From contig NZ_JBDSWZ010000079.1 in the NCBI RefSeq assembly GCF_039926425.1, positions 82 to 64,081 of the forward strand: a stretch of 64,000 nt of DNA, given 5' to 3'. Both the position numbers and the translations under genes were made by a program. The DNA comes from Dokdonella sp. Its GTDB lineage: Bacteria > Pseudomonadota > Gammaproteobacteria > Xanthomonadales > Rhodanobacteraceae. This document shows, piece by piece, positions 1 to 16,253 of the stretch. Under the pieces are notes generated by a model. That model did not search any database. It was not told where the DNA came from and worked only from the letters and a program-made list of their open reading frames with translations. Positions within the stretch are counted from its first letter, which is position 1. Each line of letters begins with the position of its first letter.

Positions 1-278
1 TCGGCGAGCCGCTCACCGCACAGCGTCCACAGCTCCTCGAACAGAAATGGCGCGGTCACGATCGTCGGTCCGGCGTCGAACGTGAAACCGTCCTGTCGAT
101 ACACGTACGCGCGACCACCGGGCGCATCAAGCTTCTCGAGCACGGTCACCTTGTAACCGCGCGCGCCGAGCCTCACTGCAGCCGCAAGCCCGCCGAATCC
201 GGCGCCGATCACCAGCGCGACCGGAGGACTGCGCCTGGGCCCGGGAGACAGTCCGGACGGACTGGGAAGTGTCAACAT
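1..278 (-). CDS. crtI: Phytoene desaturase, N-terminal part (runs off the left edge)
   Basis: Hand translation [84 protein letters not shown] contains the Rossmann GxGxxG motif and the Crt[10 protein letters not shown] motif. Not in the ORF track. Confidence 0.93.
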
Positions 279-312
279 TGTGTGACAATATAGAAGTCCG
301 AATGGAGTGACA
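270..312. promoter_or_regulatory. Tandem PpsR operators: perfect TGT-N12-ACA (270-287) and one-mismatch site (295-312), 7 bp apart
   Basis: TGTCAACATTGTGTGACA and AGTCCGAATGGAGTGACA lie between the divergent crtI and idi genes. Confidence 0.85.
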
Positions 313-4894: not shown

Positions 4895-5548
4895 ATGGAT
4901 ACGGGCCGTCCCGAACCACCGGGTCCGTTGTCGTTGTCCGCGCAGCTTCGTGCCAGGACGCGCGACCTGCACACCCAGGCCGAACGCAGCGGGATCATGC
5001 GCGCGCTTCTCCGCGGCGATGTGCAACGGGCTGCGTACGTGCTGCTTCTACGCAACCTCCACGCGATCTATGCTGCGCTGGAAGCCGCCCTTGAAGCGCA
5101 CGCCGCGCATCCGCTGATTGCGCCGCTGTACGACCCGTTGCTGTGGCGTCGTCGTCCGCTCGAACAAGACCTCGATGCGTTGCATGGCGCCGAATGGCGC
5201 GATCTCGCCATTACCCCGACCACCCGCGACTACGTCATTGTGGTCACCGCCGCGAATCCCGCGACGCTGGTGGCGCACGCCTATGTCCGCTATCTCGGCG
5301 ATCTCAGCGGCGGTCAGATCCTTGCACGCATCGTGCAGGCATCGCTGCAGCTCGAGGGGACGGCTGGCTCCGAGTTCTACCGTTTCGCCACGCCCGATGC
5401 GGGCGCTCTCGCGCAACGCTTCCGGCGCCAGCTGGACGGCATTCCCGTCAACGCTGCCCTCGCAGCGATTATCGTCGGCGAGGCACGTCGATCCTTCTCG
5501 ATGCACGTGCGACTGTTCGAGGAGCTGGCGGTCGCTCCGCCGTCCTGA
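4895..5548 (+). CDS. hmuO: Biliverdin-producing heme oxygenase (HmuO/HO-1 type)
   Basis: Proximal His region TRDLHTQAE and signature HAYVRYLGDLSGGQIL; adjacent to the phytochrome gene. Confidence 0.9.
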   Translation: MDTGRPEPPGPLSLSAQLRARTRDLHTQAERSGIMRALLRGDVQRAAYVLLLRNLHAIYAALEAALEAHAAHPLIAPLYDPLLWRRRPLEQDLDALHGAEWRDLAITPTTRDYVIVVTAANPATLVAHAYVRYLGDLSGGQILARIVQASLQLEGTAGSEFYRFATPDAGALAQRFRRQLDGIPVNAALAAIIVGEARRSFSMHVRLFEELAVAPPS

Positions 5549-5561
5549 TCGCCCGGCGAAC

Positions 5562-7751
5562 TCAACCGTCGCGATCTTTTTCGTAAGCGCGCAATTGCGA
5601 GTAGATCGCGGTCGCACGTTGCGTGGCTGTTCGAAGATCTTCGATCAACGCTGCAACTCCGCTGTTGCCGTTGCCGTCCGCAATGTCGATCGCCGCAAGA
5701 CGCGCGTTGGTGAGGATCGCACCGACCAGTGCGTCTGGCGGCTGCGCGCTCGCCAAATCGGCGGCGTTGCGACCATCGGCCCGACTCGCCTGATAGAGCG
5801 CCTCCTCCAGTTGTCGACGCGCCGCCTCGGCGCGCTTGTTTTCCGACAGATCGGTAAAGATCAGGATGAATCCAAGCACTGCACCGAGCGGACCGGGGAC
5901 CACATCGGCGCGAACGCCGACCGGGACATGGGGCGTGGACACGCCGCCAAACCGAAGCTCGCCTCGCCACGGTCGACGCTGCTCGCGAATCGTGCGGAGC
6001 ATCGCACGCGCATCCGCCGACTCGGTGAAGGCACCCGCAAGTTCGTCGAGCGTGCGGAGTGCCGATGTGCCGATCAGCGTATGGAACATGTCGTTGCTGA
6101 AGAGAATGTTGCCGCCTGCGTCGGCAATGACGACCGGCTCGCGCGCGTTGGCCACGGTGACGCGCACGAGGTTCAACTGGTGCTGCGCGATGAGCAGGCG
6201 CACCGCCTGGATCTGCACGATGATGTCGATCAGCGTGACGCCGATCGCGCGCGCAAGGGCAATCTCGGCATTCGACCACGGCGATGCGGTGCCGCGGACG
6301 ATCTGCGACCACGCCTCGAATGACCGTCGCGGCGACAGGTTCATCGGATCGTTGTCGATCACCGCTTTGGACGGATCTCCCGCCCACGTCACCTCGCTGT
6401 ACTGTTCGGCGCGGAACCACATCAGGTAATCCGGCCGCGAAATCGAGAGCTCCAGGGCGATCAACCCGCTCGCGGTCGGACTGATCGACGCGAACGCAGG
6501 GTTTTCGCGCGACACCGATGAACAGCAGAACATCGAATCGGTCTTCTGCGCGGCGACCCACGCAAGAAGTTTCCGCAGCTCGGGGGTCGATGGCACGTCG
6601 CCAACGGTCTGGATCTCGTCTTCGAAAAACAATGCCGCACCCGTTGCATCGAGCGGTTGCAGCAGCGTTCGCGGGCTGCGAAACAGCGCGCGCCGCCAGT
6701 CGCCATCCGTGGATGTGGCGTCGATCAGCCGCTGTTCGAGCGCACGCACAAGAATGACCCCTTGCGCGTGCGCGTAATTCTCGACTGCAGTGATGCGCGT
6801 CGAGATGACTTCGGCGAGCAGCCCGCACGCCGCACGCAGGCTGTATCCGATCCGCCGCGGCGAATAGTGGTGGCAGGCGATCAGGCCCCACAGGCGACCT
6901 TCGCGAACCAGCGACACCACCAGGGTGGCGGTGACGCCCATGTTCTTGAGGTACTGCAGGTGGAGCGGTGACATGCTCCGCAGGTAACACAGCGACATGT
7001 CCAGTTCGCTGCTGTCGGGCAGCACCGGAACCGGCTCGTAGTGGACGTCGACGAGGACGCGGACGCGATTGCGAACGTAGAGCGCGCGCGCGCGATGCGG
7101 GATGTCGGTCGACGGATAATGATGTCCCAGCAGGGATTCGAGCGATTTCCTGCGTGCTTCCGCAATGATCTCGCCGTGACCGTCCGGATCAAACTTGTAG
7201 ACCATCACCCGGTCGTAGCCCAGCAGCGCGCGCAGCGATTGCACCACGGAGTCAGAAAGCGCGGTCACGCTCGTCGCACTGCTGAACCGCTCGACCGCAG
7301 TGCCAAGCTGCAGGCGCAGTTCCTCGCCCGTGATGTCAATGCTCTCGATCGCAGACACGTCCGAATCGACGGGCTCCAGCTCGACGATGAGTCGCTCTCC
7401 GGCAATCCGATGAAGGATGCCTTCGAACTCCAGTGCACGGGAATTTCCGGTTGCATCGACAAAGCAGCGCAGAGGTTGCGGTTCGTCGAGAAGGTCACCG
7501 TCAAGCAGTCGCTCGATTCGACGTTGCAGGTTGCCGCCGAGTTCTGCGATCGAGCGACCCACCAGCGCCTCAACGGGAATCCCCAGGAGACCTGCGACGT
7601 TTGCGCTCGCCATTTCCACGCGCAAGCCGGTTTCATGAAGGACCAGCAGCACGCCATGTGGCTGCACGGAACCCGCAAGATGGATCAGCTCGCGCTCGCA
7701 GTTGGTGAGGTCGGCCTGACCAAACGCCGGACTGAGCAGCAGGCCCGTCAT
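5562..7751 (-). CDS. bphP1: Bacteriophytochrome, BphP1 type (PAS-GAF-PHY-PAS-helical output, no histidine kinase)
   Basis: N-terminal SPAFGQADLTNCERELIHLAGSVQPHG with the biliverdin-binding Cys, YPSTDIP, PRRSF tongue; C-terminal PAS plus HOS-like helices resembling Rhodopseudomonas BphP1. Confidence 0.92.
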   Translation of the reverse strand: MTGLLLSPAFGQADLTNCERELIHLAGSVQPHGVLLVLHETGLRVEMASANVAGLLGIPVEALVGRSIAELGGNLQRRIERLLDGDLLDEPQPLRCFVDATGNSRALEFEGILHRIAGERLIVELEPVDSDVSAIESIDITGEELRLQLGTAVERFSSATSVTALSDSVVQSLRALLGYDRVMVYKFDPDGHGEIIAEARRKSLESLLGHHYPSTDIPHRARALYVRNRVRVLVDVHYEPVPVLPDSSELDMSLCYLRSMSPLHLQYLKNMGVTATLVVSLVREGRLWGLIACHHYSPRRIGYSLRAACGLLAEVISTRITAVENYAHAQGVILVRALEQRLIDATSTDGDWRRALFRSPRTLLQPLDATGAALFFEDEIQTVGDVPSTPELRKLLAWVAAQKTDSMFCCSSVSRENPAFASISPTASGLIALELSISRPDYLMWFRAEQYSEVTWAGDPSKAVIDNDPMNLSPRRSFEAWSQIVRGTASPWSNAEIALARAIGVTLIDIIVQIQAVRLLIAQHQLNLVRVTVANAREPVVIADAGGNILFSNDMFHTLIGTSALRTLDELAGAFTESADARAMLRTIREQRRPWRGELRFGGVSTPHVPVGVRADVVPGPLGAVLGFILIFTDLSENKRAEAARRQLEEALYQASRADGRNAADLASAQPPDALVGAILTNARLAAIDIADGNGNSGVAALIEDLRTATQRATAIYSQLRAYEKDRDG

Positions 7752-7832
7752 TTCCGGCCCGCAAGACGGCCGGGAACACGCTCGTGTTCGCAGGCGCGCA
7801 ACATCAACCGGTGACCGGAAGCGACCACGCGC

Positions 7833-9077
7833 TCAATGCACGTTGCGATCAGGACGTTCGCCATCGTCGAGGTGCTGCATCGTCGAATGATGCGAGACGC
7901 GGATGAGAAATCCGACGAGGCCATCCTGCCCGACAACCGTCGCCGAGAATTCCACATCGACCCGATCGGCGCTTGCGCGGCGCAGCCGGCCAGCCTGCAG
8001 GCCGAGCGACCCTTCGCGCCGAACACGCGCGAGTAGCATTCCGATGCTCGATTCTTTCGATCCCGCGGGGTCCACGAAAATCCAGTCCTCGAGATTGCCG
8101 CCGACGATGTGCCGACCGGGGGGACATTGCAGCAGATCAAGCAACGCCTGATTGACGATTTCGATGCGACCGGCACCACTGCAGACGACCACCGCATCCG
8201 GAGCGCGACGAATGAGGTCTGCAAATATCCGGTCCGCGTCTGCTCCAACCGAAATGGCATCGCGCGCCGTGTCGGCCCGTGGCGCAATCGACGCGGAAAG
8301 GAACATCACCACCAGAACCGGCACCGCCTCGTTGTCGAACGGCGTCACCGAAAACCCGATCTCCGCCCGATCATCGCCAAGCCGCAGAACGCCTTCCGCG
8401 ACACGCGCGGTGCGGCGCGCCGCCTCGAGACCAGCGGTCAACTCCCGCTGCGCATCCGCGCTGAACAGATCGGCGGTTGACCGACCTGCAATCTGCCGGG
8501 TTGATTGTCCGAGCATGCGTGCAGCAGCTGCGTTCGCGTCAAGGACACCCAGGCTCGACGCATCGAAGATCAGCGCGGGCTCGCTCGACACCTGGAACAG
8601 CAAGCGGTAGCGCGTTTCCGCCTGGCGATGCCGCCAATGGTCACGCTCCATGTCTTTCTGGCTTTGCAGCAGACGCTCCTGCATCGCGGCGACCGCGCGC
8701 ATGTCGCGACCGACGGCCAGCGTCGGACCCTGATCGCCCAGCCGGACCGCGGCATACGCAATCGGGATGTCCAGACCTTCGGACGCGTGCTCGACGTGGC
8801 GCAGTCGCGACACGCCGGTGCTGGCGAGATCGTCGAGAACCGCCTCGACCTTCTCGCGCGTGTTCCCGGTGACGGTGTCGCTCCAGCGCTGGCCGACCCA
8901 CTCGCAAGCCGATTCGGAAACGGCCTGCGTTTCGCCGAGTGCCACACTCCGGATCACTCCGCCCTCATCGAGCACAAGTGCAATGTCGTAGGCGACCGAC
9001 ACAAGCATGTCCGCAAGCTCCGGTGCAAGGTCGGACAACGCACTGAGATCCGCGAACGGACGAGGCTTTTTGCTCAT
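7833..9077 (-). CDS. ppsR2: PpsR2-like multi-PAS protein lacking the C-terminal HTH
   Basis: N-PAS, Q-linker (GRDMRAVAAMQERLLQSQKDMERDHWRHRQAETRYRLLFQ), PAS1 and PAS2, then a stop with no Fis-type HTH; AGGAG RBS before ATG 9077. Confidence 0.85.
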   Translation of the reverse strand: MSKKPRPFADLSALSDLAPELADMLVSVAYDIALVLDEGGVIRSVALGETQAVSESACEWVGQRWSDTVTGNTREKVEAVLDDLASTGVSRLRHVEHASEGLDIPIAYAAVRLGDQGPTLAVGRDMRAVAAMQERLLQSQKDMERDHWRHRQAETRYRLLFQVSSEPALIFDASSLGVLDANAAAARMLGQSTRQIAGRSTADLFSADAQRELTAGLEAARRTARVAEGVLRLGDDRAEIGFSVTPFDNEAVPVLVVMFLSASIAPRADTARDAISVGADADRIFADLIRRAPDAVVVCSGAGRIEIVNQALLDLLQCPPGRHIVGGNLEDWIFVDPAGSKESSIGMLLARVRREGSLGLQAGRLRRASADRVDVEFSATVVGQDGLVGFLIRVSHHSTMQHLDDGERPDRNVH

Positions 9078-9161
9078 GTGCCGCTCCTGCACGTGCGAAA
9101 CGACGTGGAGCGGGTTGCTCGTTGTCGCCGAACTCGAAATCGCCGGATCGACTCCATCGAT

Positions 9162-9536
9162 TCAGCCACTGCCCATGATAGTTTTTTTTCTGTCCGGCTG
9201 CGAAGAATCCTGCGGAGAGCCTTCCTGCGCCGACGGCAGCGTGGACCTGGGCGACGCCGGACGCCAACGCCGGGAAAGATCGAGCAGGTGGCCGATCAGG
9301 GACGCGACCAGCGCCACCGCAATCCACGTCCACGACTGCCCGGTCAGAGCGGCACGCAACGCAAACAGCAGACAAGTGCCGGATGCGAGATTGATGAGCA
9401 GGTCAGTGAACGAGATCCCGCTCGACGTGCGCCGGAAGTAGAGGCCAAGTGCGAGCGCTTCCACCAGCATGACGGCAAGCACCAGATCGACGATTCGGCC
9501 GGAGCCGAAAAACGCGACCATGCTGTCTGCAGTCAT
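9162..9536 (-). CDS. Small membrane protein of unknown function (about 3 TM), PGC-associated
   Basis: Three hydrophobic segments; starts 3 nt after the tspO stop. Confidence 0.7.
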   Translation of the reverse strand: MTADSMVAFFGSGRIVDLVLAVMLVEALALGLYFRRTSSGISFTDLLINLASGTCLLFALRAALTGQSWTWIAVALVASLIGHLLDLSRRWRPASPRSTLPSAQEGSPQDSSQPDRKKTIMGSG

Positions 9537-9539
9537 GGG

Positions 9540-10037
9540 TCAACCGCCTGTGAAAGGTCCGTTGAGACGGATGATGGCGAGATTGAGGATCGACGCGAAA
9601 CTGACCCAGACGAGGTATGGCGTCAGCAACAGGCTCGAGGTGCGCGAGTAATTCCACATCAGCACCATCAGAGTGACGATCGACGACCACAGCAGAGACA
9701 CCTCGTACAACGCGAAATCCGGCCGGTGCATGCGGAAGAACAGCACGCTCCACACCACGTTGAGAACGACGTTGGCAGCGAACACGATCAGCATGCGGCG
9801 GCGGCTCGTCGCATCGGGAGCACGACGCCAGGCCAACAGTCCCGAGAGCGCGGCGAGTGCGAAGATCGTCGTCCAGACTGGACCGAACAGCCAGTCGGGC
9901 GGCTGCCACGACGGTTTTTGAAGTGCGTAGTACCACGCACTGAGATCAGTCGCGAGCGCGCCGAATCCGCTGGCGGCGGCAGCCGCCAGCAATGCGATCA
10001 CCACCGGCTTCCACCGCTGCCGTCCAGTCCGCGTCAT
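9540..10037 (-). CDS. tspO: TspO/MBR tryptophan-rich sensory protein
   Basis: WYYALQKPSWQPPDWLFGPVW and PYLVWVSFASILN motifs; overlaps the bchP stop. Confidence 0.95.
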   Translation of the reverse strand: MTRTGRQRWKPVVIALLAAAAASGFGALATDLSAWYYALQKPSWQPPDWLFGPVWTTIFALAALSGLLAWRRAPDATSRRRMLIVFAANVVLNVVWSVLFFRMHRPDFALYEVSLLWSSIVTLMVLMWNYSRTSSLLLTPYLVWVSFASILNLAIIRLNGPFTGG

Positions 10038-11242
10038 GCCGGAGCAAGGCCGAGAAGGTGAGCCAGATCCTTGAAGAAGATGCGCACATGCGCCATCGGC
10101 TTGCGGCGCACCAGTTCCTTGTTCATGTAGGCCTCGAAAGTGAGTTTCTGGACGTCTGGATCCTTGCAGATGCTGACGAAGCGCTCGCGCCGTCCTTCGC
10201 TGCTGTACCAGAAGCGCTGCATGATGCCGAGGACCCAGAACACCAGTCCGTGCAACTTCATGAATTTCTTGCGCGCGAGCTTCAGCGATCGCACGTCACC
10301 GGTCACCAGCAACGCCTCGACCGCCTGCGCCGCAAACTGTCCGCCGACCATCGCATAATAGATCCCCTCGCCGGATGCAGGCGCGACGACGCCCGCCGCG
10401 TCGCCCGCGAGCACCACGTCGCGTCCATTGTCCCAGCGGGGCAGCGGTTTCATCGGAATCGGTGCACCCTCGCGCCGAATCGTTTCGCCATCGAGCTGAC
10501 TTGCGCCGCGCAGCGCGCTGACCGCGGTTCGCAGCGAGAATCCCTTGCGCGCACTGCCGGTGCCGATGCTGGTGGTTGCGCCATGAGGAAAAACCCACGA
10601 GTAGAAATCGGGCGACAACTCGCCGCGATAGATGACATCGCAGCGCTGCGCATCGAATGCGGCATGAGGGACCGTCGGCGAACGGACGATCTCGTGATAG
10701 GCGAACACGTAACGCATGCGCTCGGCCCCCTTGATGGTCTGCTTTGCGACCTCGGATGTGGCGCCATCCGCGCCGATCACTGCACGGGCGCGCACGCTGT
10801 GCACGGCGCCGGCATCCGGGTCAGCGCCCGGACGGTAGTGGATTCGCGCGACACCATCGCCGTCGCGACTGAAGAGCTTGAAGGTTCCGCTGCGCAGATC
10901 TGCGCCACTCGCGACCGCGCGTTCGCGCAACCATGGGTCGAAGGCTTCGCGATCGACCATGCCGACGAATCCATTTTCGATCGGAATGTCCACATTTTCA
11001 GATTTTGGTGAAATCATCCTCGCGGAGGTGATCTTCGCCACCAGAAGATCATCGGGAATCCCGAAGTCGCGGATCAGACGCGGCGGAATCGCGCCACCAC
11101 ACGGCTTGGTGCGACCGGAGCGGTCAAGCAGCAACACCGATCGACCGCCTTGAGCCAGTTCATGCGCCGCCGTCGCGCCTGCCGGGCCGCCACCCACGAC
11201 GACGACGTCGAAGATCTCCGTACCATCCGATGCACGATTCAT
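10034..11242 (-). CDS. bchP: Geranylgeranyl-bacteriochlorophyllide reductase
   Basis: VVGGGPAG, KPCGGAIP, GEGIYYA; start at MNRASDG, with ATGA overlap to the upstream gene's stop. Confidence 0.95.
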   Translation of the reverse strand: MNRASDGTEIFDVVVVGGGPAGATAAHELAQGGRSVLLLDRSGRTKPCGGAIPPRLIRDFGIPDDLLVAKITSARMISPKSENVDIPIENGFVGMVDREAFDPWLRERAVASGADLRSGTFKLFSRDGDGVARIHYRPGADPDAGAVHSVRARAVIGADGATSEVAKQTIKGAERMRYVFAYHEIVRSPTVPHAAFDAQRCDVIYRGELSPDFYSWVFPHGATTSIGTGSARKGFSLRTAVSALRGASQLDGETIRREGAPIPMKPLPRWDNGRDVVLAGDAAGVVAPASGEGIYYAMVGGQFAAQAVEALLVTGDVRSLKLARKKFMKLHGLVFWVLGIMQRFWYSSEGRRERFVSICKDPDVQKLTFEAYMNKELVRRKPMAHVRIFFKDLAHLLGLAPA

Positions 11243-12603
11243 GTTGCTGTCTCCCGTGATGCCGATGCGGCCGTGATGGCGGGCCGCGACTGTGCTGTCC
11301 TGTCCGTTTCCGACGCGCCGATGCCGGCGGCAAGTCGCGCCGCCGCGAGGAAGAGCAACGCCTCTGCAGCGAACACCAGACCGTTGGCGCTTCCCGGCGA
11401 GGCGACGAACAATCGCGCGAGGTCGCTGCCCGCAGCTCCGAGGAATCCGCCGAGTCCGAATGCGACGGCCTGCGCCGCGCCCCACAGTCCCATGCGCACT
11501 CCTTCGCGCGACCCGCGCCCACTACCGGCGAAACTCATCATCGAACCGATGGCCGCCACGGCAAACGCTCCGTTCGCGACGCCGAGCACGAAGACGTTCG
11601 GCGTGAGCGGCCATGACTGGCCGATCGATCCACCAATCGACAGCAGAACCAGCGCAAGCGCCGACGCGACGCAACCCAGCACTGTCCAGGTGCGCAACGA
11701 ACCGATCCACGACCCCCGCAGCGCAGCGCACGCGAGGTTGACCAGCAACATTCCGACCAGCACGCCGCCGTGCTGCACACCGGACAGCTGCGTGGATTGA
11801 CCCGGGGTCATCGAGAAGACAGACCCTGCGAACGGTTCGAGAATCAGTTCCTGGCCGCTGTAGGCCAGCATCGACACGAACACGAACACGGTGAACCGAC
11901 GTGCCTGCGGTTCGCCCCACACCTGCGCGAGCGCTTCCAGAAAGGGCGGCTTCGCCGTTGCACCGTCGGAGCCCGCGGACATGGGCGTTTCACCGCCTGC
12001 ACCGCGGCCTTCGAGACCGGCGACAGCGACAAGCGTCAGTGCCAACGCAATCGCAGAGACCGCCGCGGTGAGCTCGACGAGCCGGACCGCCGAATAAGGA
12101 TCCAGCAACTTTCCGACGATGATCGTCGTGATCACGAACCCGGCGATCATCATCAGCCACACGGCGGTGGCTGCCGCGGCGCGGCGCGGCGCGTCCACCC
12201 GCTTCGCCAGCAGGACCAGCAATGAGGTCCCCGCCGCACCGACGCCGGCGCCAATCAGCACGAATCCGCCGAACGCAGCGACGATTCCTCCGACCCGCGA
12301 TGTTTCCATCCATGCGATCGCGAGCGCTGCGAGCACTGCACCCGCGCCGAGCGTCGCGATGCCGCCGATGATCCACGGCGTGCGCCGCCCACCAATGTCG
12401 GAGCCGAAACCGAATCGCGGCCGCAGGATCTGCACCGCGTAGTGCAAGCCGACCAGTGCGCCTGGGAGGATCGCCGGCAGCGCCAGCTCGACAACCATGA
12501 CACGGTTCATCGTCGAGGTCGCGAGGACCACGATGGAACCCAGTGCCGCCTGGACGAGCCCGAGGCGCGCGATCGCTGACCAGCCGAACAAGGCCGCCTT
12601 CAT
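11239..12603 (-). CDS. pucC: PucC/BCD-family MFS protein (bch2)
   Basis: RLGLVQAALG, STMNRVMVVEL, ILEPFAG and GLWGAAQA motifs; lies between bchG and bchP with overlapping stop/start codons. Confidence 0.88.
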   Translation of the reverse strand: MKAALFGWSAIARLGLVQAALGSIVVLATSTMNRVMVVELALPAILPGALVGLHYAVQILRPRFGFGSDIGGRRTPWIIGGIATLGAGAVLAALAIAWMETSRVGGIVAAFGGFVLIGAGVGAAGTSLLVLLAKRVDAPRRAAAATAVWLMMIAGFVITTIIVGKLLDPYSAVRLVELTAAVSAIALALTLVAVAGLEGRGAGGETPMSAGSDGATAKPPFLEALAQVWGEPQARRFTVFVFVSMLAYSGQELILEPFAGSVFSMTPGQSTQLSGVQHGGVLVGMLLVNLACAALRGSWIGSLRTWTVLGCVASALALVLLSIGGSIGQSWPLTPNVFVLGVANGAFAVAAIGSMMSFAGSGRGSREGVRMGLWGAAQAVAFGLGGFLGAAGSDLARLFVASPGSANGLVFAAEALLFLAAARLAAGIGASETDRTAQSRPAITAASASRETAT

Positions 12604-13487
12604 GCGCCCGCTCCGGTCAGGCTGCGCAGTGCGAACGCGCTCACCATCATGCCGCTGACGAACAGCGGAACGCCAAACCCGCTGTACCACAGTGCGCGAT
12701 CGACCGCGCTGCGCGTGAAGCGCTCCATCATCAGCACCTGCGCAATCAGCAGTCCGCCGACGACCAGTGCCTGCACAGGGCGATCCCATGCAGCGAGAAG
12801 GACGATCACCATCACCTGCGAAAGCGTCATGATCAGCGCCGCCGCGTAGGCCGCGCCATCGATACCGAGCTGCACCGGCAGCGATGCGATGCCCATCGCG
12901 CGATCGCCCGCGATGGCCTTGAAATCATTGAGCGTCATGATCCCATGCGCGCCGATGCTGTAGAGACCGGCCAACGCGAACGAGCGAACATCGGGCATCG
13001 CGCCGCCCACCATCACTGCGGCGCCGGTCAGCCAGGCGAGGCCTTCATAACTGAAGGAGCATGCCGTATTGCCAAACCAGCCGTTGCGCTTGAGGCGAAA
13101 CGGCGGTGCGCTGTACGCCCACGCGAGCACGAGGCCAAGCGCAGCGGCGGCAAATCCCCAAGGACCGAGCTGCGTTGCGACGAGCAACGACAGCAGAGTC
13201 CAACCAATGCCGATGTACAGCCCCCATCGTCCCGGAATTCGTCCGGAAGGAATCGGCCGCTGCGGTTCGTTGATTGCATCGACCTCGCGGTCGAACCAGT
13301 CGTTGACTGCCTGGCTCGTTGCGCACACCAGCGGTCCGGCCAGGACGATCCCCAGAACGATCACGCCCCAGCGTCCGTGCCCCGGCATCCCCGAGGCCAC
13401 CGCTCCGCACGCAAACGCCCACATCGGCGGAAACCAGGTGATCGGCTTCAGGAGTTCAGCGACGGCCGAAAGGGCGACCCGTGGCAT
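12600..13487 (-). CDS. bchG: Bacteriochlorophyll a synthase
   Basis: LLKPITWFPPMWAF, NDWFDREVDAINEPQRPIPSGR and LNDFK UbiA-family motifs. Confidence 0.96.
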   Translation of the reverse strand: MPRVALSAVAELLKPITWFPPMWAFACGAVASGMPGHGRWGVIVLGIVLAGPLVCATSQAVNDWFDREVDAINEPQRPIPSGRIPGRWGLYIGIGWTLLSLLVATQLGPWGFAAAALGLVLAWAYSAPPFRLKRNGWFGNTACSFSYEGLAWLTGAAVMVGGAMPDVRSFALAGLYSIGAHGIMTLNDFKAIAGDRAMGIASLPVQLGIDGAAYAAALIMTLSQVMVIVLLAAWDRPVQALVVGGLLIAQVLMMERFTRSAVDRALWYSGFGVPLFVSGMMVSAFALRSLTGAGA

Positions 13488-13539: not shown

Positions 13540-13557
13540 TGTCCAGCATTCGTGACA
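13540..13557. promoter_or_regulatory. PpsR operator upstream of bchG
   Basis: Perfect TGTCCAGCATTCGTGACA (TGT-N12-ACA), 52 bp upstream of the bchG start. Confidence 0.85.
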
Positions 13558-13803: not shown

Positions 13804-15285
13804 TCACGTTTCGGCGTCGTCGGACTCGCCTGTCGCATCGCCAAGACCGTAGCGTCTCAGCTTTACGTAGAGGCTCTGCCGGCTGAGACCAAGCACCTCC
13901 GCTGCTGATGCGCGATTGTCGCGCGTCAATTGCAACGCCGCCTCGATGCACAGCTTTTCGACCAGATCGGTGGCGTCGCGGACCAGTTCCTTCAGCGGAA
14001 CGCGACCGACCAGCTCGGTCAGCTGCGCGACTGAGCGCGGCTGGTCTGCGACGTGGCCCGTTGCGTCGGACGCAATGCGCCGACCAACATCGCGGATGTT
14101 GAATCCCATGCACGGCGGATCGGCCGCTGGCATTGCGACACCGGAGACCTCGACCTCGGCAACGGCGCCGTGCTCGCCGGTCAGCGTCGTGGCGAAGAGT
14201 CGAATCGTGCCGTGTTGGCGCAAGTTGGCCATCAGCACGCTGAAATCGACGCGCGAGCGACCGATCCAGCGATCCAGTGATTCACCGCGCGCCAGCGCGT
14301 CCGATGGCATCTGCGACAGATCGAGGAACGCGCGGTTCGTGGCGACGACGCGCCCGTCGATGTCGGTCACCGCAAACGCATCCGCGGAAAACTCCAGCGC
14401 GCGAAGCACGGTTTTCGGCAACTGCGCAGGCCCCATTTCAATCCGCGGCAGCGCAATGCGCAAAAGATAGAGCGCGTCGTTGCCCTGGCGCAGATAGAAC
14501 GACGACACCAGGTATTCGCGCCTGTCGATGCCGAGTCGGATCGAAATGTCGTCGGTGCGGCCTGTGGCCCGCGCGCCCGCCACGAGAGTCTGCATGACTT
14601 GTGCGTTTTCGACACCGAGGCACTCGAAGACCGTCTTGCCGATCACGCGTTTGGCGGAATCGCCCAGCAGCTCCGCGACGGCTGGATTGGCCTCCACGAC
14701 CTTGTCGGTGGCCGCATCGACGATGAGGATCGCCTCGGCCGAAATCTGGAACAGCATGCGGTAGCGCGTTTCGACGTTCCGCAAACGCCAGTAATCGCGT
14801 TCCATCGACTGCTGCGCGTCCATCAGACGCTGCTGCAGCCCGGTCATTTCGCGCATATCGCGGCCGAACGCGACGATCTGCCCATCGCGACCTGCGCGCA
14901 CTGCGGAATACAGCACCGGCACGTCGCCGCCGCGCGACGAATTGTGATTGACGTAGCGCCACTTGTGATCGCCGGGATCAGCGGCGTCGCGCAGCAGAGC
15001 CTCGACTTTGGACCGGCTGTCCGGGGTCACGGTTTCGATCCAGGGCTGACCGATCCACTTTCGGTAGCCCTCCCTCGCCATGTCTTCGCTGCCAAAACTC
15101 ACATCGACGACAGTGCCGTCGGCATCGAGGATCAGCGAGAGGTCGGCGGCGGCGGTGACGAGTGCCGCAACGCCCGTCGCGTCGAGCCCGCCCAGCCAGC
15201 TGCCGGGACTCGGGACCTGCTTCACGCGCGGAGCTCGTATCGAAGCATTGACCTTCGCGACCTCAATCATCGGTTTCCGAGCCAT
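13804..15285 (-). CDS. ppsR: PpsR/CrtJ transcriptional repressor (full length)
   Basis: N-PAS, Q-linker, PAS1, PAS2 and Fis-type HTH (VEKLCIEAALQLTRDNRASAAEVLGLSRQSLYVKLRRYGL) with the redox Cys; start approximate. Confidence 0.93.
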   Translation of the reverse strand: MARKPMIEVAKVNASIRAPRVKQVPSPGSWLGGLDATGVAALVTAAADLSLILDADGTVVDVSFGSEDMAREGYRKWIGQPWIETVTPDSRSKVEALLRDAADPGDHKWRYVNHNSSRGGDVPVLYSAVRAGRDGQIVAFGRDMREMTGLQQRLMDAQQSMERDYWRLRNVETRYRMLFQISAEAILIVDAATDKVVEANPAVAELLGDSAKRVIGKTVFECLGVENAQVMQTLVAGARATGRTDDISIRLGIDRREYLVSSFYLRQGNDALYLLRIALPRIEMGPAQLPKTVLRALEFSADAFAVTDIDGRVVATNRAFLDLSQMPSDALARGESLDRWIGRSRVDFSVLMANLRQHGTIRLFATTLTGEHGAVAEVEVSGVAMPAADPPCMGFNIRDVGRRIASDATGHVADQPRSVAQLTELVGRVPLKELVRDATDLVEKLCIEAALQLTRDNRASAAEVLGLSRQSLYVKLRRYGLGDATGESDDAET

Positions 15286-15302
15286 GACCCCATATCCAGA
15301 TC

Positions 15303-16253
15303 CTACGGTTGTCGTTCGGCACCATTTCCCTGGCCGTCGCGACGTGCGGCAAGCGATTCGGCCCTGGCGAGTGTATCGCGAGGATCGCCTGTACACCCAT
15401 CGGCACCGATGCCTGCACCCCGTTCCGGATGGGCGCCAAACGCCGGGCCGCTGACCGTGACGCCGACCGCTCCGTTGAGGGAGGTGCGCCGCATCTCCGC
15501 GATGTCCGCCGACAACTGCGGCAAACGTCCGGAGCAACTCGACGCGACATCGATCACGTCGAACCACTGTGTTTGCAGGATCTGCGCAAGCTGTGGGCGC
15601 GACGACGGAAGGGTGCGCCAGACGTGCCATCCGGCACGATAGAAGAACTCCGCGGTCATGCAGCGGTAGAACTCCGTCACCATGAAGACGCCCAGCATGT
15701 TCTGTTCGCACGGCGCAGAAAGGACCAGGGCCCTGCGACCGCACGCGGTCGCCTGCATCGCGAGCGGCGTATTCGCACTCAGCGAATGCAGCACATGCTT
15801 CAGGTTGAGCATGCCGAGCGCGACTTCCTCGAAGTGGCAGACGTCGGCCTGCCAGCGCTCCAGGATCAGGTTCGCCGTCGGCATGAGCAGTTCGAGGTAG
15901 AGCGCCTGTGGCGTCGTCGCGTCGGACAGCCGCGCCGAAACCCAGTCCCACACTGAGGACGCACGCTGAGTCGAGACCAGTGCGCTGAACTCCAGCACGT
16001 CCGGACGTCCAGGAGACCACGATGACTCGACCATCGGCGTCGACGATCGATAGGCGACCATCAGCCGGGGTATGACTTCCATCTCGACCGCGCGACCGAG
16101 ATCTCCAGTCCCCAATGTCGAGCCGGACGCGCCGCGCGAGCGGCCATCCTCGCGATGCGGTTCGGTTTTTCCAGAACCCGTCTTCAGCGAACGGCGGGTC
16201 GAGTTGCGCCATGCGCCAGGGCGCGTCACACGGTCAGGCGTCAAGCCGTTCAT
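15303..16253 (-). CDS. aerR: AerR/PpaA-family antirepressor (cobalamin-binding fold, atypical)
   Basis: EMEVIPRL, LYLELLMPTA, WQADVCHFEEV, AGW and FDVIDVASSC motifs; canonical position between ppsR and bchF; GGAGG RBS. Confidence 0.88.
   Translation of the reverse strand: MNGLTPDRVTRPGAWRNSTRRSLKTGSGKTEPHREDGRSRGASGSTLGTGDLGRAVEMEVIPRLMVAYRSSTPMVESSWSPGRPDVLEFSALVSTQRASSVWDWVSARLSDATTPQALYLELLMPTANLILERWQADVCHFEEVALGMLNLKHVLHSLSANTPLAMQATACGRRALVLSAPCEQNMLGVFMVTEFYRCMTAEFFYRAGWHVWRTLPSSRPQLAQILQTQWFDVIDVASSCSGRLPQLSADIAEMRRTSLNGAVGVTVSGPAFGAHPERGAGIGADGCTGDPRDTLARAESLAARRDGQGNGAERQP

What the first reader, a model, noticed from the sequence alone, without database searches (positions are those of the whole stretch)
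4895..9077. Rewired near-IR switch: BphP1 plus an HTH-less PpsR2 plus heme oxygenase
Seen: the PpsR paralog upstream of bphP keeps N-PAS, a Q-linker closely similar to that of full-length PpsR (13804-15285), PAS1 and PAS2, but stops cleanly with no HTH. The 81-nt gap before bphP shows no frameshifted HTH. Known: in Rhodopseudomonas/Bradyrhizobium, light-activated BphP1 sequesters the DNA-binding repressor PpsR2 through Q-PAS1 and turns photosynthesis genes on. Inference: this PpsR2 cannot bind DNA, so it may act as an adaptor or dominant-negative partner of PpsR via the Q-linker. If it is an antirepressor, BphP1 sequestration would invert the logic to light-off/dark-on, which matches how aerobic anoxygenic phototrophs make BChl.
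Basis: partly seen in the sequence, partly recalled or inferred. Interest (0 to 1): 0.92.

Follow-up and report, generated by a model that had tools for sequence, protein, structure and literature searches.

The report
Phytochrome-linked PpsR2 without DNA-binding domain
Next to a near-infrared light sensor in this photosynthesis gene cluster sits a copy of the repressor PpsR that has lost its DNA-binding end; this is a conserved protein family rather than a broken gene, so the sensor probably controls photosynthesis genes through protein-protein titration and not through a DNA-bound repressor.

Summary
Gene 7833-9077 (-) encodes a 414-aa PpsR-type protein with N-PAS, Q-linker, PAS1 and PAS2 but no Fis-type HTH. 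No HTH remnant exists in any frame. It lies 81 nt upstream of a BphP1-type bacteriophytochrome (5562-7751, best PDB match RpBphP1), with a divergent heme oxygenase (4895-5548). A full-length PpsR lies 4.7 kb away.

The truncation is neither unique nor decaying. HTH-less homologues (375-417 aa, 39-93% identity) are numerous, under purifying selection (dN/dS 0.18-0.25), and always upstream of a ~730-aa BphP in the same synteny. Hosts include cultured Methyloversatilis and Nevskia, Panacagrimonas and Lysobacterales MAGs.

A second lineage lost the HTH independently. In HTH-bearing bphP-linked PpsR2 proteins, the recognition helix is canonical in only 2 of 20, against 18 of 18 co-resident PpsR. 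Nearly all short proteins end in hydrophobic-His-COOH.

Best reading: a non-DNA-binding BphP partner that acts on full-length PpsR by hetero-oligomerisation. The inverted light logic is untested, and its "matches AAPs" argument is weak. I found no description of such proteins in the searched literature. This is a new variant of a known system, of moderately high interest.

The parts
4895..5548 (+). Heme oxygenase (bphO/hmuO type, 217 aa), convergent with bphP. It supplies biliverdin for the phytochrome.
   Evidence: PF01126 at E 1.6e-53. The same position and orientation recur in related loci. dN/dS against L083 is 0.39.
5562..7751 (-). BphP1-type ('type 3') bacteriophytochrome, 729 aa: photosensory core, PAS9 and a C-terminal two-helix (HOS-like) region, with no histidine kinase.
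   Evidence: PAS_2, GAF, PHY and PAS_9 hits with no HisKA or HATPase. Best PDB match is RpBphP1 4GW9, E 4.8e-173, including the N-terminal 'NCERE' Cys motif. dN/dS is 0.067.
6213..7751 (-). BphP photosensory core (PAS2-GAF-PHY, residues 1-513).
   Evidence: Mean pairwise identity across partner loci is 0.59-0.65.
5832..6179 (-). BphP PAS9 domain (residues ~525-640).
   Evidence: PF13426 over residues 538-637. Aligned to the PAS9 of 4GW9.
5565..5831 (-). BphP C-terminal ~89 residues, HOS-like helix-turn-helix output region (residues 641-729).
   Evidence: Its position and length match the HOS of RpBphP1 as described in PMC6899989. It is conserved equally in BphPs paired with HTH-less partners (0.49) and HTH-bearing partners (0.46). 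The single-sequence AF2 model was only suggestive, with helices at pLDDT 38.
7752..7832 (-). 81-nt intergenic gap between the ppsR2s stop codon and the bphP ATG. It holds no coding remnant of an HTH.
   Evidence: Sequence read. tblastn in all frames found nothing. No terminator-like site lies in the gap, which is consistent with co-transcription (inference).
7833..9077 (-). ppsR2s: a naturally HTH-less PpsR2-type protein of 414 aa (the ORF could extend to a GTG at 9092).
   Evidence: TIGR02040 positions 1-359 of 442, no HTH_8. 48 of the top 120 homologues are also HTH-less. dN/dS is 0.175-0.25. AF2 pLDDT is 82.9. Top Foldseek hit is 4HH2.
8703..9044 (-). PpsR2s N-terminal PAS domain (residues ~12-125). 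Together with the Q-linker it is the most conserved part of the family.
   Evidence: Invariant columns D31 to R124 in alignment A1. AF2 secondary structure.
8589..8702 (-). PpsR2s Q-linker helix (residues 126-163).
   Evidence: AF2 helix 126-163. Q133, Q140, E144 and R151 are invariant. By my mapping of the alignment, Q140 and E144 align with RsPpsR Q134 and E138, the tetramer and AppA contact residues named in PMC3949515.
8292..8588 (-). PpsR2s PAS1 (residues ~164-262).
   Evidence: PAS_4, PAS and PAS_8 hits over 156-264. AF2 model.
7896..8258 (-). PpsR2s PAS2 with its N-cap helix (residues ~274-394). It is intact.
   Evidence: PF24820 and PAS_7 hits over 289-382. AF2 N-cap helix 274-291 and strands up to residue 394.
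7836..7895 (-). PpsR2s disordered C-terminal tail (residues 395-414), ending ...ERPDRNVH-COOH. It carries the conserved Pro-x(2-4)-hydrophobic-His terminal motif.
   Evidence: 46 of 48 short homologues end in His, preceded by V, I, F, L or M. H414 is conserved in at least 90% of A1. Tail pLDDT is about 35. Related endings ...LLN or ...LIH occur in some HTH-bearing PpsR2 proteins and never in PpsR1.
13804..15285 (-). Full-length PpsR/CrtJ (493 aa) with a canonical Fis-type HTH. It is the presumed DNA-binding target of the module.
   Evidence: TIGR02040 1-442 at 483.9 bits and HTH_8 at E 2.8e-10. The recognition helix LGLSRQSLYVKLRRYG is conserved in 18 of 18 co-resident PpsR1 proteins.
15303..16253 (-). 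ORF in the aerR/ppaA position upstream of ppsR (316 aa). Its B12-binding similarity is only marginal.
   Evidence: PF02607 at E 0.055. Orthologous positions in L002, L085 and L086 carry B12-binding domains.
9540..13487 (-). Context genes between ppsR and ppsR2s: bchG (12600-13487), lhaA/pucC (11239-12789, maximal ORF), bchP (10034-11485, maximal ORF) and tspO (9540-10037).
   Evidence: Pfam UbiA, PUCC, FAD_binding_3/Lycopene_cycl and TspO_MBR. The order is the same in L001, L002, L085 and L086 and as described for Bradyrhizobium PGC2 (PMC10569730).
13540..13557 (.). PpsR-type palindrome TGTCCAGCATTCGTGACA between ppsR and bchG.
   Evidence: The TGT-N12-ACA scan found 16 sites in the window against 6.55 expected. 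Its function was not tested.
270..287 (.). PpsR-type palindrome TGTCAACATTGTGTGACA.
   Evidence: Its function was not tested.

Best explanation
Gene 7833-9077 encodes a member of a conserved subfamily of PpsR2-type proteins that naturally lack the HTH ('PpsR2s'). It is co-transcribed with a BphP1-type phytochrome and sits beside a heme oxygenase.

Shown here: (1) the protein has intact N-PAS, Q-linker, PAS1 and PAS2 and no DNA-binding domain; (2) it is under purifying selection; (3) it is always paired with a PCM-PAS9-HOS phytochrome; (4) wherever enough flank is available, it co-occurs with a full-length PpsR whose recognition helix is invariant.

Inferred: PpsR2s cannot bind DNA, so the light signal must reach the promoters through a protein-protein step. 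The Q-linker/PAS2 oligomerisation surfaces are retained, and an engineered RsPpsR lacking the HTH still dimerises and tetramerises. PpsR2s therefore most likely forms mixed oligomers with full-length PpsR that carry fewer HTHs and bind the tandem TGT-N12-ACA sites less well, making it a dominant-negative antirepressor. Far-red light converts BphP to the state that exposes its HOS helices. These bind the Q-linker/PAS1 of PpsR2s, the same surface used for oligomerisation (by analogy with AppA on PpsR). That would withdraw PpsR2s and let PpsR repress.

The non-DNA-binding, protein-titration part is well supported (about 0.75). Action through PpsR is moderately likely (about 0.5). The sign (far-red off, dark on) is the least certain step (about 0.3-0.35).
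For: Domain content and absence of an HTH in any frame or elsewhere in the window.

Family, not accident: 48 of the top 120 homologues are 375-417 aa without PF02954. They cluster together in an NJ tree. At least 11 representatives at 50% identity carry the hydrophobic-His ending.

Selection: dN/dS is 0.175 and 0.25.

Obligate pairing and synteny (aerR-ppsR-bchG-lhaA-bchP-tspO-ppsR2s-bphP, with HO convergent). Full-length PpsR is present in every locus with enough flank.

Independent second loss: L031/L036 nest with the HTH-bearing L052/L069 at bootstrap 100 and 79, and this lineage has 12 clusters.

HTH dispensability in the bphP-linked paralog generally: the canonical recognition helix is found in 2 of 20 long PpsR2 against 18 of 18 PpsR1. 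Pfam HTH_8 ranges from 43 bits to undetectable.

BphP type: RpBphP1 is the best PDB match. The HOS region is equally conserved whether or not the partner has an HTH.

Literature: RsPpsR lacking the HTH tetramerises with an unchanged Kd of 0.9 uM through PAS2:Q-linker contacts, and AppA binds that Q-linker patch (PMC3949515). Q-PAS1 alone binds BphP1. HOS is required for complex formation with PpsR2 (PMC6899989). A dark-active PpsR antirepressor exists in an AAP (LdaP). The Q-linker contact residues Q140 and E144 are invariant.
Against: No interaction was tested, and no multimer prediction was possible with these tools. The Q-linker is conserved across all PpsR proteins, so it gives no specific evidence for a PpsR2s:PpsR heteromer. 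PAS2 of PpsR2s is less conserved than PAS2 of PpsR1. By my reading, the residue aligned with RsPpsR R339 (a tetramer contact) is Gly in the window's subclade, which may weaken tetramer formation. The characterised homologous modules (R. palustris, Bradyrhizobium) are light-on, so a sign inversion would have had to be tolerated at the moment the HTH was lost, at least twice. The SAXS-based model of Papiz et al. places the HOS against the HTH of PpsR2. If that were the real interface, PpsR2s might not bind BphP at all. Expression of the PGC in cultured hosts (Methyloversatilis) is unproven.
Confidence: 0.4

Rival explanations
1. Sign-preserving co-repressor. PpsR2s bridges or stabilises full-length PpsR dimers on the tandem palindromes through PAS2:Q-linker contacts. 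Far-red-activated BphP removes it, so repression collapses and photosystem genes turn on in far-red light, as in R. palustris and Bradyrhizobium.
For: The light logic of the characterised homologous modules would be kept, which gives an easier evolutionary path for repeated HTH loss. PpsR needs higher oligomers (tetramer or octamer) for DNA binding, and PAS2:Q-linker contacts build them (PMC3949515). Co-regulators that extend or alter CrtJ/PpsR-DNA contacts are known, for example AerR (title and abstract of PMC5362033).
Against: An oligomer partner without an HTH would normally reduce avidity for DNA, not raise it. PAS2 of PpsR2s is the less conserved half of the interface. There is no direct evidence.
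Confidence: 0.2
2. Decoy or buffer. The activated BphP acts directly on full-length PpsR through its nearly identical Q-linker. The co-expressed PpsR2s competes for the HOS helices and so sets a threshold or sharpens the light response (molecular titration).
For: The Q-linker core (MERDYW..R..ETRYR.LF) is shared by PpsR1 and PpsR2s. Q-PAS1 is sufficient for BphP1 binding. ppsR2s and bphP appear to be co-transcribed, which would fix their stoichiometry (inference).
Against: A pure decoy would not be expected to keep three PAS domains and a conserved C-terminal motif for so long. In R. palustris, BphP1 is reported to target PpsR2 specifically.
Confidence: 0.15
3. PpsR-independent role. PpsR2s is a PAS sensor (redox, heme or another ligand) that modulates BphP, or the BphP-PpsR2s complex acts on a different target. 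The conserved terminal His could be a ligand or a docking element.
For: A conserved hydrophobic-His-COOH tail has no counterpart in PpsR1. RsPpsR is reported to bind heme (Yin 2012 as cited in PMC3949515). A heme oxygenase is adjacent. PAS1 and PAS2 evolve faster than in PpsR1.
Against: The module always sits inside a PGC next to a full-length PpsR. The most conserved parts are the N-domain and Q-linker, which are the oligomerisation and partner-binding elements, not the PAS pockets.
Confidence: 0.15
4. Pseudogene or assembly artefact: a recently truncated ppsR2 that is decaying, or a sequencing error that hides the HTH.
For: None beyond the missing domain. The TIGR02040 score falls below the family cut-off.
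Against: The same 414-aa length and stop appear in independent assemblies at 93% and 71% identity. dN/dS is 0.18-0.25. Dozens of intact homologues go down to 39% identity, all with the same end. There is no HTH remnant in any frame, and the gap holds only 81 nt. The fold model is confident.
Confidence: 0.02

Closest known systems
RpBphP1-RpPpsR2 of Rhodopseudomonas palustris (and BrBphP-PpsR2 of Bradyrhizobium)
   Same: The gene order is the same: bphP next to ppsR2, then bchP-lhaA-bchG-ppsR1. The phytochrome architecture is the same, PCM-PAS9-HOS without a kinase, and RpBphP1 is the best PDB match at E 4.8e-173. The partner has the PpsR N-Q-PAS1-PAS2 body. A heme oxygenase is adjacent.
   Different: The partner here has no HTH and cannot be a DNA-bound repressor, so the published mechanism (light-activated BphP1 pulls repressor PpsR2 off DNA) cannot apply as such. 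The hosts are Beta- and Gammaproteobacteria rather than Alphaproteobacteria. A conserved C-terminal hydrophobic-His motif is present.
Engineered RsPpsR lacking the HTH (PDB 4HH2) and QPAS1 (truncated RpPpsR2 used in optogenetics)
   Same: The domain content is the same as the laboratory construct, and 4HH2 is the top Foldseek hit (E 7.7e-27). The construct still forms dimers and tetramers. Q-PAS1 alone binds BphP1.
   Different: Those are man-made truncations. This is a natural, selected one, with its own C-terminal tail and only 25% identity to RsPpsR.
AppA-PpsR (Rhodobacter sphaeroides), AerR/PpaA-CrtJ, and LdaP-PpsR (Dinoroseobacter shibae) antirepressor systems
   Same: In all of these, a photoreceptor or cofactor protein controls PpsR by protein-protein contact rather than by DNA binding. 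AppA's helical bundle binds the PpsR Q-linker. LdaP is active in the dark.
   Different: None of those regulators is itself a PpsR paralog. Here the intermediary is a PpsR-derived protein, and the light sensor is a separate biliverdin phytochrome that responds to far-red rather than blue light.
Dominant-negative HLH proteins lacking the DNA-binding region (Id/Emc; plant HFR1, PAR1 and 'microProteins' in phytochrome signalling). This comparison is from general knowledge and was not tested here.
   Same: The concept is the same: a paralog keeps the oligomerisation domain, loses the DNA-binding part and titrates the DNA-binding family member.
   Different: The protein folds and kingdoms are unrelated. 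The analogy is functional only, and the titration is not demonstrated here.

Membership tests
PpsR/CrtJ transcriptional regulator (NCBIfam TIGR02040) | N-terminal PAS domain, glutamine-rich Q-linker helix, PAS1 and PAS2 | tested here: met
   TIGR02040 positions 1-359, E 6.9e-74. AF2 model with three PAS domains and helix 126-163. 4HH2 is the top fold match.
PpsR/CrtJ transcriptional regulator (NCBIfam TIGR02040) | C-terminal Fis-type HTH (PF02954) that binds TGT-N12-ACA | tested here: not met
   No HTH_8 hit. The model match stops at position 359 of 442. No HTH exists in any frame downstream or elsewhere in the window apart from ppsR.
PpsR/CrtJ transcriptional regulator (NCBIfam TIGR02040) | Whole-protein score above the curated cut-off (275.4 bits) | tested here: not met
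   249.5 bits. Sources name homologues inconsistently, as 'transcriptional regulator PpsR' or 'PAS domain-containing protein'.
BphP1-type ('type 3') bacteriophytochrome | PAS2-GAF-PHY photosensory core with an N-terminal biliverdin-binding Cys | tested here: met
   Pfam PAS_2, GAF and PHY. The 'LTNCERELIHLAGSVQPHG' motif aligns with 'LSNCEREEIHLAGSIQPHG' of 4GW9.
BphP1-type ('type 3') bacteriophytochrome | PAS9 output domain and no histidine kinase | tested here: met
   PF13426 over 538-637 with no HisKA or HATPase hit. The alignment to 4GW9 runs through PAS9.
BphP1-type ('type 3') bacteriophytochrome | C-terminal two-helix output sensor (HOS) | tested here: inconclusive
   89 residues follow PAS9, the same length as in RpBphP1 (729 against 730 aa), and they are conserved across partner loci. 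The single-sequence AF2 model shows helices but at pLDDT 38. The HOS is absent from the PDB entry, so no direct alignment was possible.
BphP1-type ('type 3') bacteriophytochrome | Bathy photocycle (Pfr ground state) with far-red activation | not testable with these tools
   Requires spectroscopy of the holoprotein.
BphP1-PpsR2 light switch | ppsR2 directly upstream of bphP inside the PGC, with a second ppsR nearby | tested here: met
   Window gene map. The arrangement is the same in 13 loci with short PpsR2 and 21 with long PpsR2. The order matches the Bradyrhizobium/R. palustris PGC.
BphP1-PpsR2 light switch | PpsR2 is a DNA-binding repressor released by light-activated BphP1 | tested here: not met
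   There is no DNA-binding domain.
BphP1-PpsR2 light switch | Light-dependent BphP1:PpsR2 complex formation | not testable with these tools
   Needs pull-down, SEC or SAXS in dark against ~760 nm light. No multimer prediction was available.
Heme oxygenase (BphO/HmuO) | Heme_oxygenase fold adjacent to a bphP gene | tested here: met
   PF01126 at E 1.6e-53, covering positions 2-204 of the 204-position model. It lies 13 nt from the bphP stop, convergent.

The most novel reading that the evidence does not exclude
The bphP-linked PpsR2 paralog may work without DNA binding across Beta- and Gammaproteobacteria in general. Its HTH is degenerate in 18 of 20 long forms and was deleted at least twice. 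If so, the accepted picture ('BphP1 sequesters a DNA-bound repressor') is a special case. The general circuit would be phytochrome to PpsR-derived anti- or co-regulator to master PpsR, a bacterial counterpart of the HLH-titration logic of plant phytochrome signalling. The conserved Pro-x(2-4)-hydrophobic-His/Asn-COOH tail would be a new docking or turnover element of this circuit. Its survival also suggests that the main short clade arose by an in-frame internal deletion of the HTH.
Probability: 0.35. Interest if true: 0.75.

Novelty: new variant of a known kind. Interest (0 to 1): 0.62.

Why it matters
1. It changes the wiring diagram of a well-known near-infrared switch. In many soil and freshwater phototrophs the phytochrome's partner cannot touch DNA, so light control of the photosynthesis genes must pass through a protein-titration step, probably on the master repressor PpsR.

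2. It bears on an open structural question. Papiz et al. modelled the HOS of BphP1 packing against the HTH of PpsR2, whereas optogenetic work found Q-PAS1 to be sufficient. Natural partners without an HTH, with an equally conserved HOS, favour an HTH-independent interface.

3. It offers natural, evolution-tested, HTH-free BphP1 partners, and a new C-terminal motif, as candidates for near-infrared optogenetic tools.

4. Databases currently label these proteins 'transcriptional regulator PpsR', which is probably wrong in function.

5. Cultured carriers (Methyloversatilis thermotolerans 3t, Methyloversatilis sp. XJ19-13) make the question directly testable.

Tried and rejected
- Frameshifted or read-through HTH: tblastn of the PpsR C-terminus against 6801-8400 in all frames found nothing.
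- Gene fission, with the HTH as a separate ORF: only ppsR itself matched in the 64-kb window.
- Unique or decaying truncation: rejected by the family survey, synteny and dN/dS.
- Single origin of all HTH-less forms: the first NJ tree suggested one clade. With bphP-linked long forms and bootstrapping, the deep nodes are unsupported (24%, 2%, 21%). Only the independence of the L031/L036 lineage is solid. The number of losses inside the main group stays open.
- Q-linker similarity as evidence for a specific PpsR2s:PpsR heteromer: rejected, because the similarity is family-wide.
- HOS confirmation by AF2 on the BphP C-terminus alone: the model was too poor to use (pLDDT 38).
- The small membrane ORF between tspO and ppsR2s as part of the module: rejected. 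It also occurs in PGC loci without bphP, and elsewhere in the cluster in Methyloversatilis.
- Promoter and terminator scans around the module gave nothing above background.
- The TGT-N12-ACA matches inside ppsR2s (8984-9001) and bphP (6733-6750) lack the TGTCA/TGACA form and lie in coding sequence. I treated them as chance.
- Literature searches found no description of a natural HTH-less PpsR2. The library lacks most subscription journals, so absence is not proof.
- RNA evidence: only metagenomic DNA runs hold the sequence, so expression could not be checked.

Full report
**Observation.**
- The heme oxygenase is 4895-5548 (+), PF01126 at E 1.6e-53.
- The bacteriophytochrome is 5562-7751 (-), 729 aa, with PAS_2-GAF-PHY-PAS_9 and no histidine-kinase domains.
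- The PpsR-like gene is 7833-9077 (-), 414 aa.
- The PpsR-like protein matches the NCBIfam PpsR-CrtJ model over positions 1-359 of 442 only. It scores 249.5 bits against a cut-off of 275.4 and has no HTH_8 hit.
- The second PpsR, at 13804-15285 (-), matches the whole model at 483.9 bits and has HTH_8.
- The gap between the ppsR-like stop codon and the bphP ATG is 81 nt.
- A tblastn of the last 110 residues of full-length PpsR found nothing in any frame of 6801-8400. In the whole window it found only ppsR itself. There is therefore no frameshifted HTH and no HTH split off into a separate gene.

**What the two proteins are.**
- The phytochrome's best solved relative is RpBphP1 of Rhodopseudomonas palustris (4GW9, E 4.8e-173). 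The alignment runs from the N-terminal Cys motif through PAS9.
- A further 89 residues follow PAS9, the length of the HOS region of RpBphP1 described by Papiz et al. (PMC6899989).
- A single-sequence AF2 model of this C-terminus was too poor to confirm the two-helix hairpin (pLDDT 38).
- The PpsR-like protein's best solved relative is R. sphaeroides PpsR (4HH2).
- An AF2 model built on a 38-sequence alignment has pLDDT 82.9. It shows an N-PAS domain, a long Q helix (126-163), PAS1, a PAS2 N-cap helix (274-291), a complete PAS2 up to residue 394 and a disordered tail at 398-414.
- Its top Foldseek hit is the entry titled 'PpsR without the HTH motif' (E 7.7e-27).
- The protein is in effect a natural version of that laboratory construct. 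I call it PpsR2s.

**Gene context.**
- On the minus strand the order is: an aerR/ppaA-position ORF (15303-16253, B12-binding_2 only at E 0.055), ppsR, bchG, lhaA/pucC, bchP, tspO, a small membrane ORF, ppsR2s and bphP. The heme oxygenase is convergent, followed by bchI and bchD.
- This is the bphP-ppsR2-...-bchP-lhaA-bchG-ppsR1 arrangement described for Bradyrhizobium and R. palustris (PMC10569730). PpsR2s is therefore the positional counterpart of PpsR2.
- The sequence comes from soil and rhizosphere metagenomes. The nearest named relatives of PpsR2s, at 50-54% identity, are Panacagrimonas MAG proteins.

**The truncation is a family trait.**
- A search of 5.8 billion proteins returned 839 hits at E <= 1e-10. 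Of the best 120, 48 are 375-417 aa without PF02954, at 39-93% identity to the query.
- They group together in an NJ tree.
- In a library clustered at 50% identity, at least 11 separate representatives have the same length and ending.
- Two independent assemblies carry 414-aa orthologues at 93% and 71% identity, with dN/dS of 0.175 and 0.25. For comparison, bphP gives 0.067, tspO 0.05-0.11 and the heme oxygenase 0.39.
- In every locus where the flank is available, the short gene lies directly upstream of, and co-oriented with, a ~720-730-aa phytochrome that has the same C-terminal region. A heme oxygenase is usually convergent, and a full-length PpsR lies 4-6 kb upstream.
- Named carriers include Methyloversatilis thermotolerans 3t, Methyloversatilis sp. 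XJ19-13, several Methyloversatilis MAGs, and Nevskia, Panacagrimonas, Lysobacterales and Rhodanobacteraceae MAGs.

**Recurrent loss and general decay of the HTH in the bphP-linked paralog.**
- A second group of HTH-less proteins (L031/L036 and 12 protein clusters of 362-386 aa) ends right after PAS2.
- This group nests with bootstrap 100 and 79 among the HTH-bearing proteins L052 and L069. All of its next relatives carry PF02954.
- It has the same synteny. The HTH was therefore lost at least twice.
- Deep nodes within the main group are poorly supported (24% or less), so the number of losses there is open.
- Among HTH-bearing PpsR2 proteins that sit next to bphP (mostly Burkholderiales: Ideonella, Methylibium, Variovorax, Rhizobacter, Rhodoferax), Pfam HTH_8 ranges from 43 bits to undetectable.
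- The recognition helix LG[LV]SRQSLYVKL is canonical in only 2 of 20 of these proteins. It is invariant in 18 of 18 co-resident PpsR1 proteins.
- One well-supported clade contains the whole series: canonical (L052), degenerate (L069) and lost (L031/L036).
- DNA binding thus appears to be dispensable for whatever the bphP-linked paralog does in these lineages. This is an inference from the conservation pattern.

**A conserved C-terminal motif.**
- 46 of 48 short proteins end in His preceded by V, I, F, L or M. A Pro usually lies 4-6 residues earlier; the window protein ends ...ERPDRNVH.
- Among the long homologues, 24 of 72 end in Asn, and 17 of those end ...LLN. Others end ...LIH or ...VSH. 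These include bphP-linked proteins of Ideonella and relatives.
- PpsR1 proteins have acidic tails and never show the motif.
- The tail is predicted to be disordered.
- The simplest reading is that this is a PpsR2-specific short linear motif that survived removal of the HTH. If so, the main short clade probably arose by an in-frame internal deletion, while the L031 type lost both the HTH and the tail.
- Its function is unknown. It could be a docking site on BphP, a degron or a ligand.

**How it probably works.**
- Three facts come from the literature.
  - An engineered RsPpsR lacking the HTH still forms dimers and tetramers with the same Kd (0.9 uM) as the full-length protein. The tetramer is built from PAS2:Q-linker contacts, and AppA's helical bundle binds the same Q-linker patch (PMC3949515).
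  - The HOS of RpBphP1 is required for the far-red-induced complex with PpsR2 (PMC6899989).
  - Q-linker plus PAS1 alone is a sufficient BphP1 partner (Redchuk 2017 as cited in PMC13058837).
- PpsR2s keeps all of these elements. The residues aligned with RsPpsR Q134 and E138 (Q140 and E144) are invariant in the family.
- The HOS region of the partner phytochromes is as conserved with HTH-less partners (0.49) as with HTH-bearing ones (0.46). This argues against the modelled HOS:HTH four-helix bundle being the essential interface.
- I therefore read PpsR2s as a non-DNA-binding BphP partner whose output is protein titration. The most likely target is full-length PpsR, through mixed oligomers with fewer HTHs (dominant-negative antirepression). 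The activated phytochrome would compete for the Q-linker.
- A sign-preserving co-repressor model, a decoy model and a PpsR-independent role remain open.
In aerobic photosynthetic Bradyrhizobium the homologous module mediates light-dependent photosystem expression, although D. shibae LdaP shows that dark-active PpsR antirepressors exist in AAPs.

**Caveats.**
- No interaction was tested, and no multimer prediction was available.
- The Q-linker similarity between the window's two PpsR proteins is family-wide.
- PAS2 of PpsR2s is less conserved than PAS2 of PpsR1. By my reading, the residue aligned with the RsPpsR R339 tetramer contact is Gly in the window's subclade.
- PGC expression in Methyloversatilis is unproven.
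- The trees are NJ trees with weak deep support.

**Novelty.**
- Eight full-text searches found the engineered truncations and the canonical BphP1-PpsR2 system, but no description of natural HTH-less PpsR2 proteins, of HTH degeneration in bphP-linked PpsR2, or of the terminal motif.
- The library omits most subscription journals, so this absence is not proof.
- I file the finding as a new variant of a known kind. It is the BphP1-PpsR2 module with a partner that fails the defining 'DNA-binding repressor' feature, is conserved, and evolved recurrently.
- Interest is about 0.62.

Noticed in passing
window 7836-7895 (-); homologues P0001-P0104, L018, L021, L029, L073: Nearly all HTH-less PpsR2 proteins end in Pro-x(2-4)-hydrophobic-His-COOH (46 of 48). 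A related ending, ...LLN, ...LIH or ...VSH, occurs at the end of some HTH-bearing PpsR2 proteins and never in PpsR1. The tail is predicted to be disordered. This suggests a conserved terminal short linear motif and an origin of the short form by internal deletion.
   Followed up: partly
L011-L013, L016-L025, L029, L030, L033, L069, L073 (bphP-adjacent ppsR2, ~453-485 aa): In most HTH-bearing, bphP-linked PpsR2 proteins of Burkholderiales the recognition helix is strongly diverged (for example LGISHDDLLERM, LGLSDEAFASM). It is canonical in only 2 of 20, while the co-resident PpsR1 helix is invariant in 18 of 18. The C-terminal domain is kept but probably no longer reads the PpsR box.
   Followed up: partly
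L031 15030-16448, L036 14661-16577, L085 10001-11101; proteins P0121-P0132: A second, independently derived HTH-less PpsR2 lineage of 362-386 aa ends right after PAS2 and has no His tail. It occurs in Burkholderiales MAGs and has the same ppsR2-bphP-HO synteny.
   Followed up: yes
window 9162-9536 (-): A small ORF with a predicted ~3 TM helices (124 aa here, 112 aa in L083 and L084; dN/dS ~0.25) lies between tspO and ppsR2s and has no significant Pfam match (only DUF6479 at E 0.0056, below its cut-off). Homologues occur in many PGC loci, including ones without bphP, so it is a general PGC gene. The window copy has a different C-terminus after an A8 run near 9180-9190, which could be a homopolymer frameshift or an assembly error.
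   Followed up: partly
window 15303-16253 (-): The ORF in the aerR/ppaA position upstream of ppsR matches the B12-binding_2 domain only at E 0.055, whereas orthologous positions in related loci have clear B12-binding domains. It may be a diverged, PpaA-like regulator.
   Followed up: no
window, whole: TGT-N12-ACA occurs 16 times against 6.55 expected from shuffles (0 of 100 shuffles reached 16). Only 270-287 and 13540-13557 have the TGTCA...TGACA-like form. Matches at 8984-9001 (inside ppsR2s) and 6733-6750 (inside bphP) are probably chance.
   Followed up: no
proteins P0257, P0328, P0368, P0370, P0380: Giant proteins of 1751-3100 aa contain 7-12 tandem stretches that each match the PpsR Q-linker/PAS1/PAS2 profile. 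This is an unusual repetitive PAS architecture that was not examined.
   Followed up: no
window 13804-16212 (-): The mechanical ORF containing ppsR extends 309 codons upstream of the real start at 15285 and overlaps the aerR-position ORF in another frame. This is a high-GC ORF-extension artefact, not a longer PpsR.
   Followed up: partly
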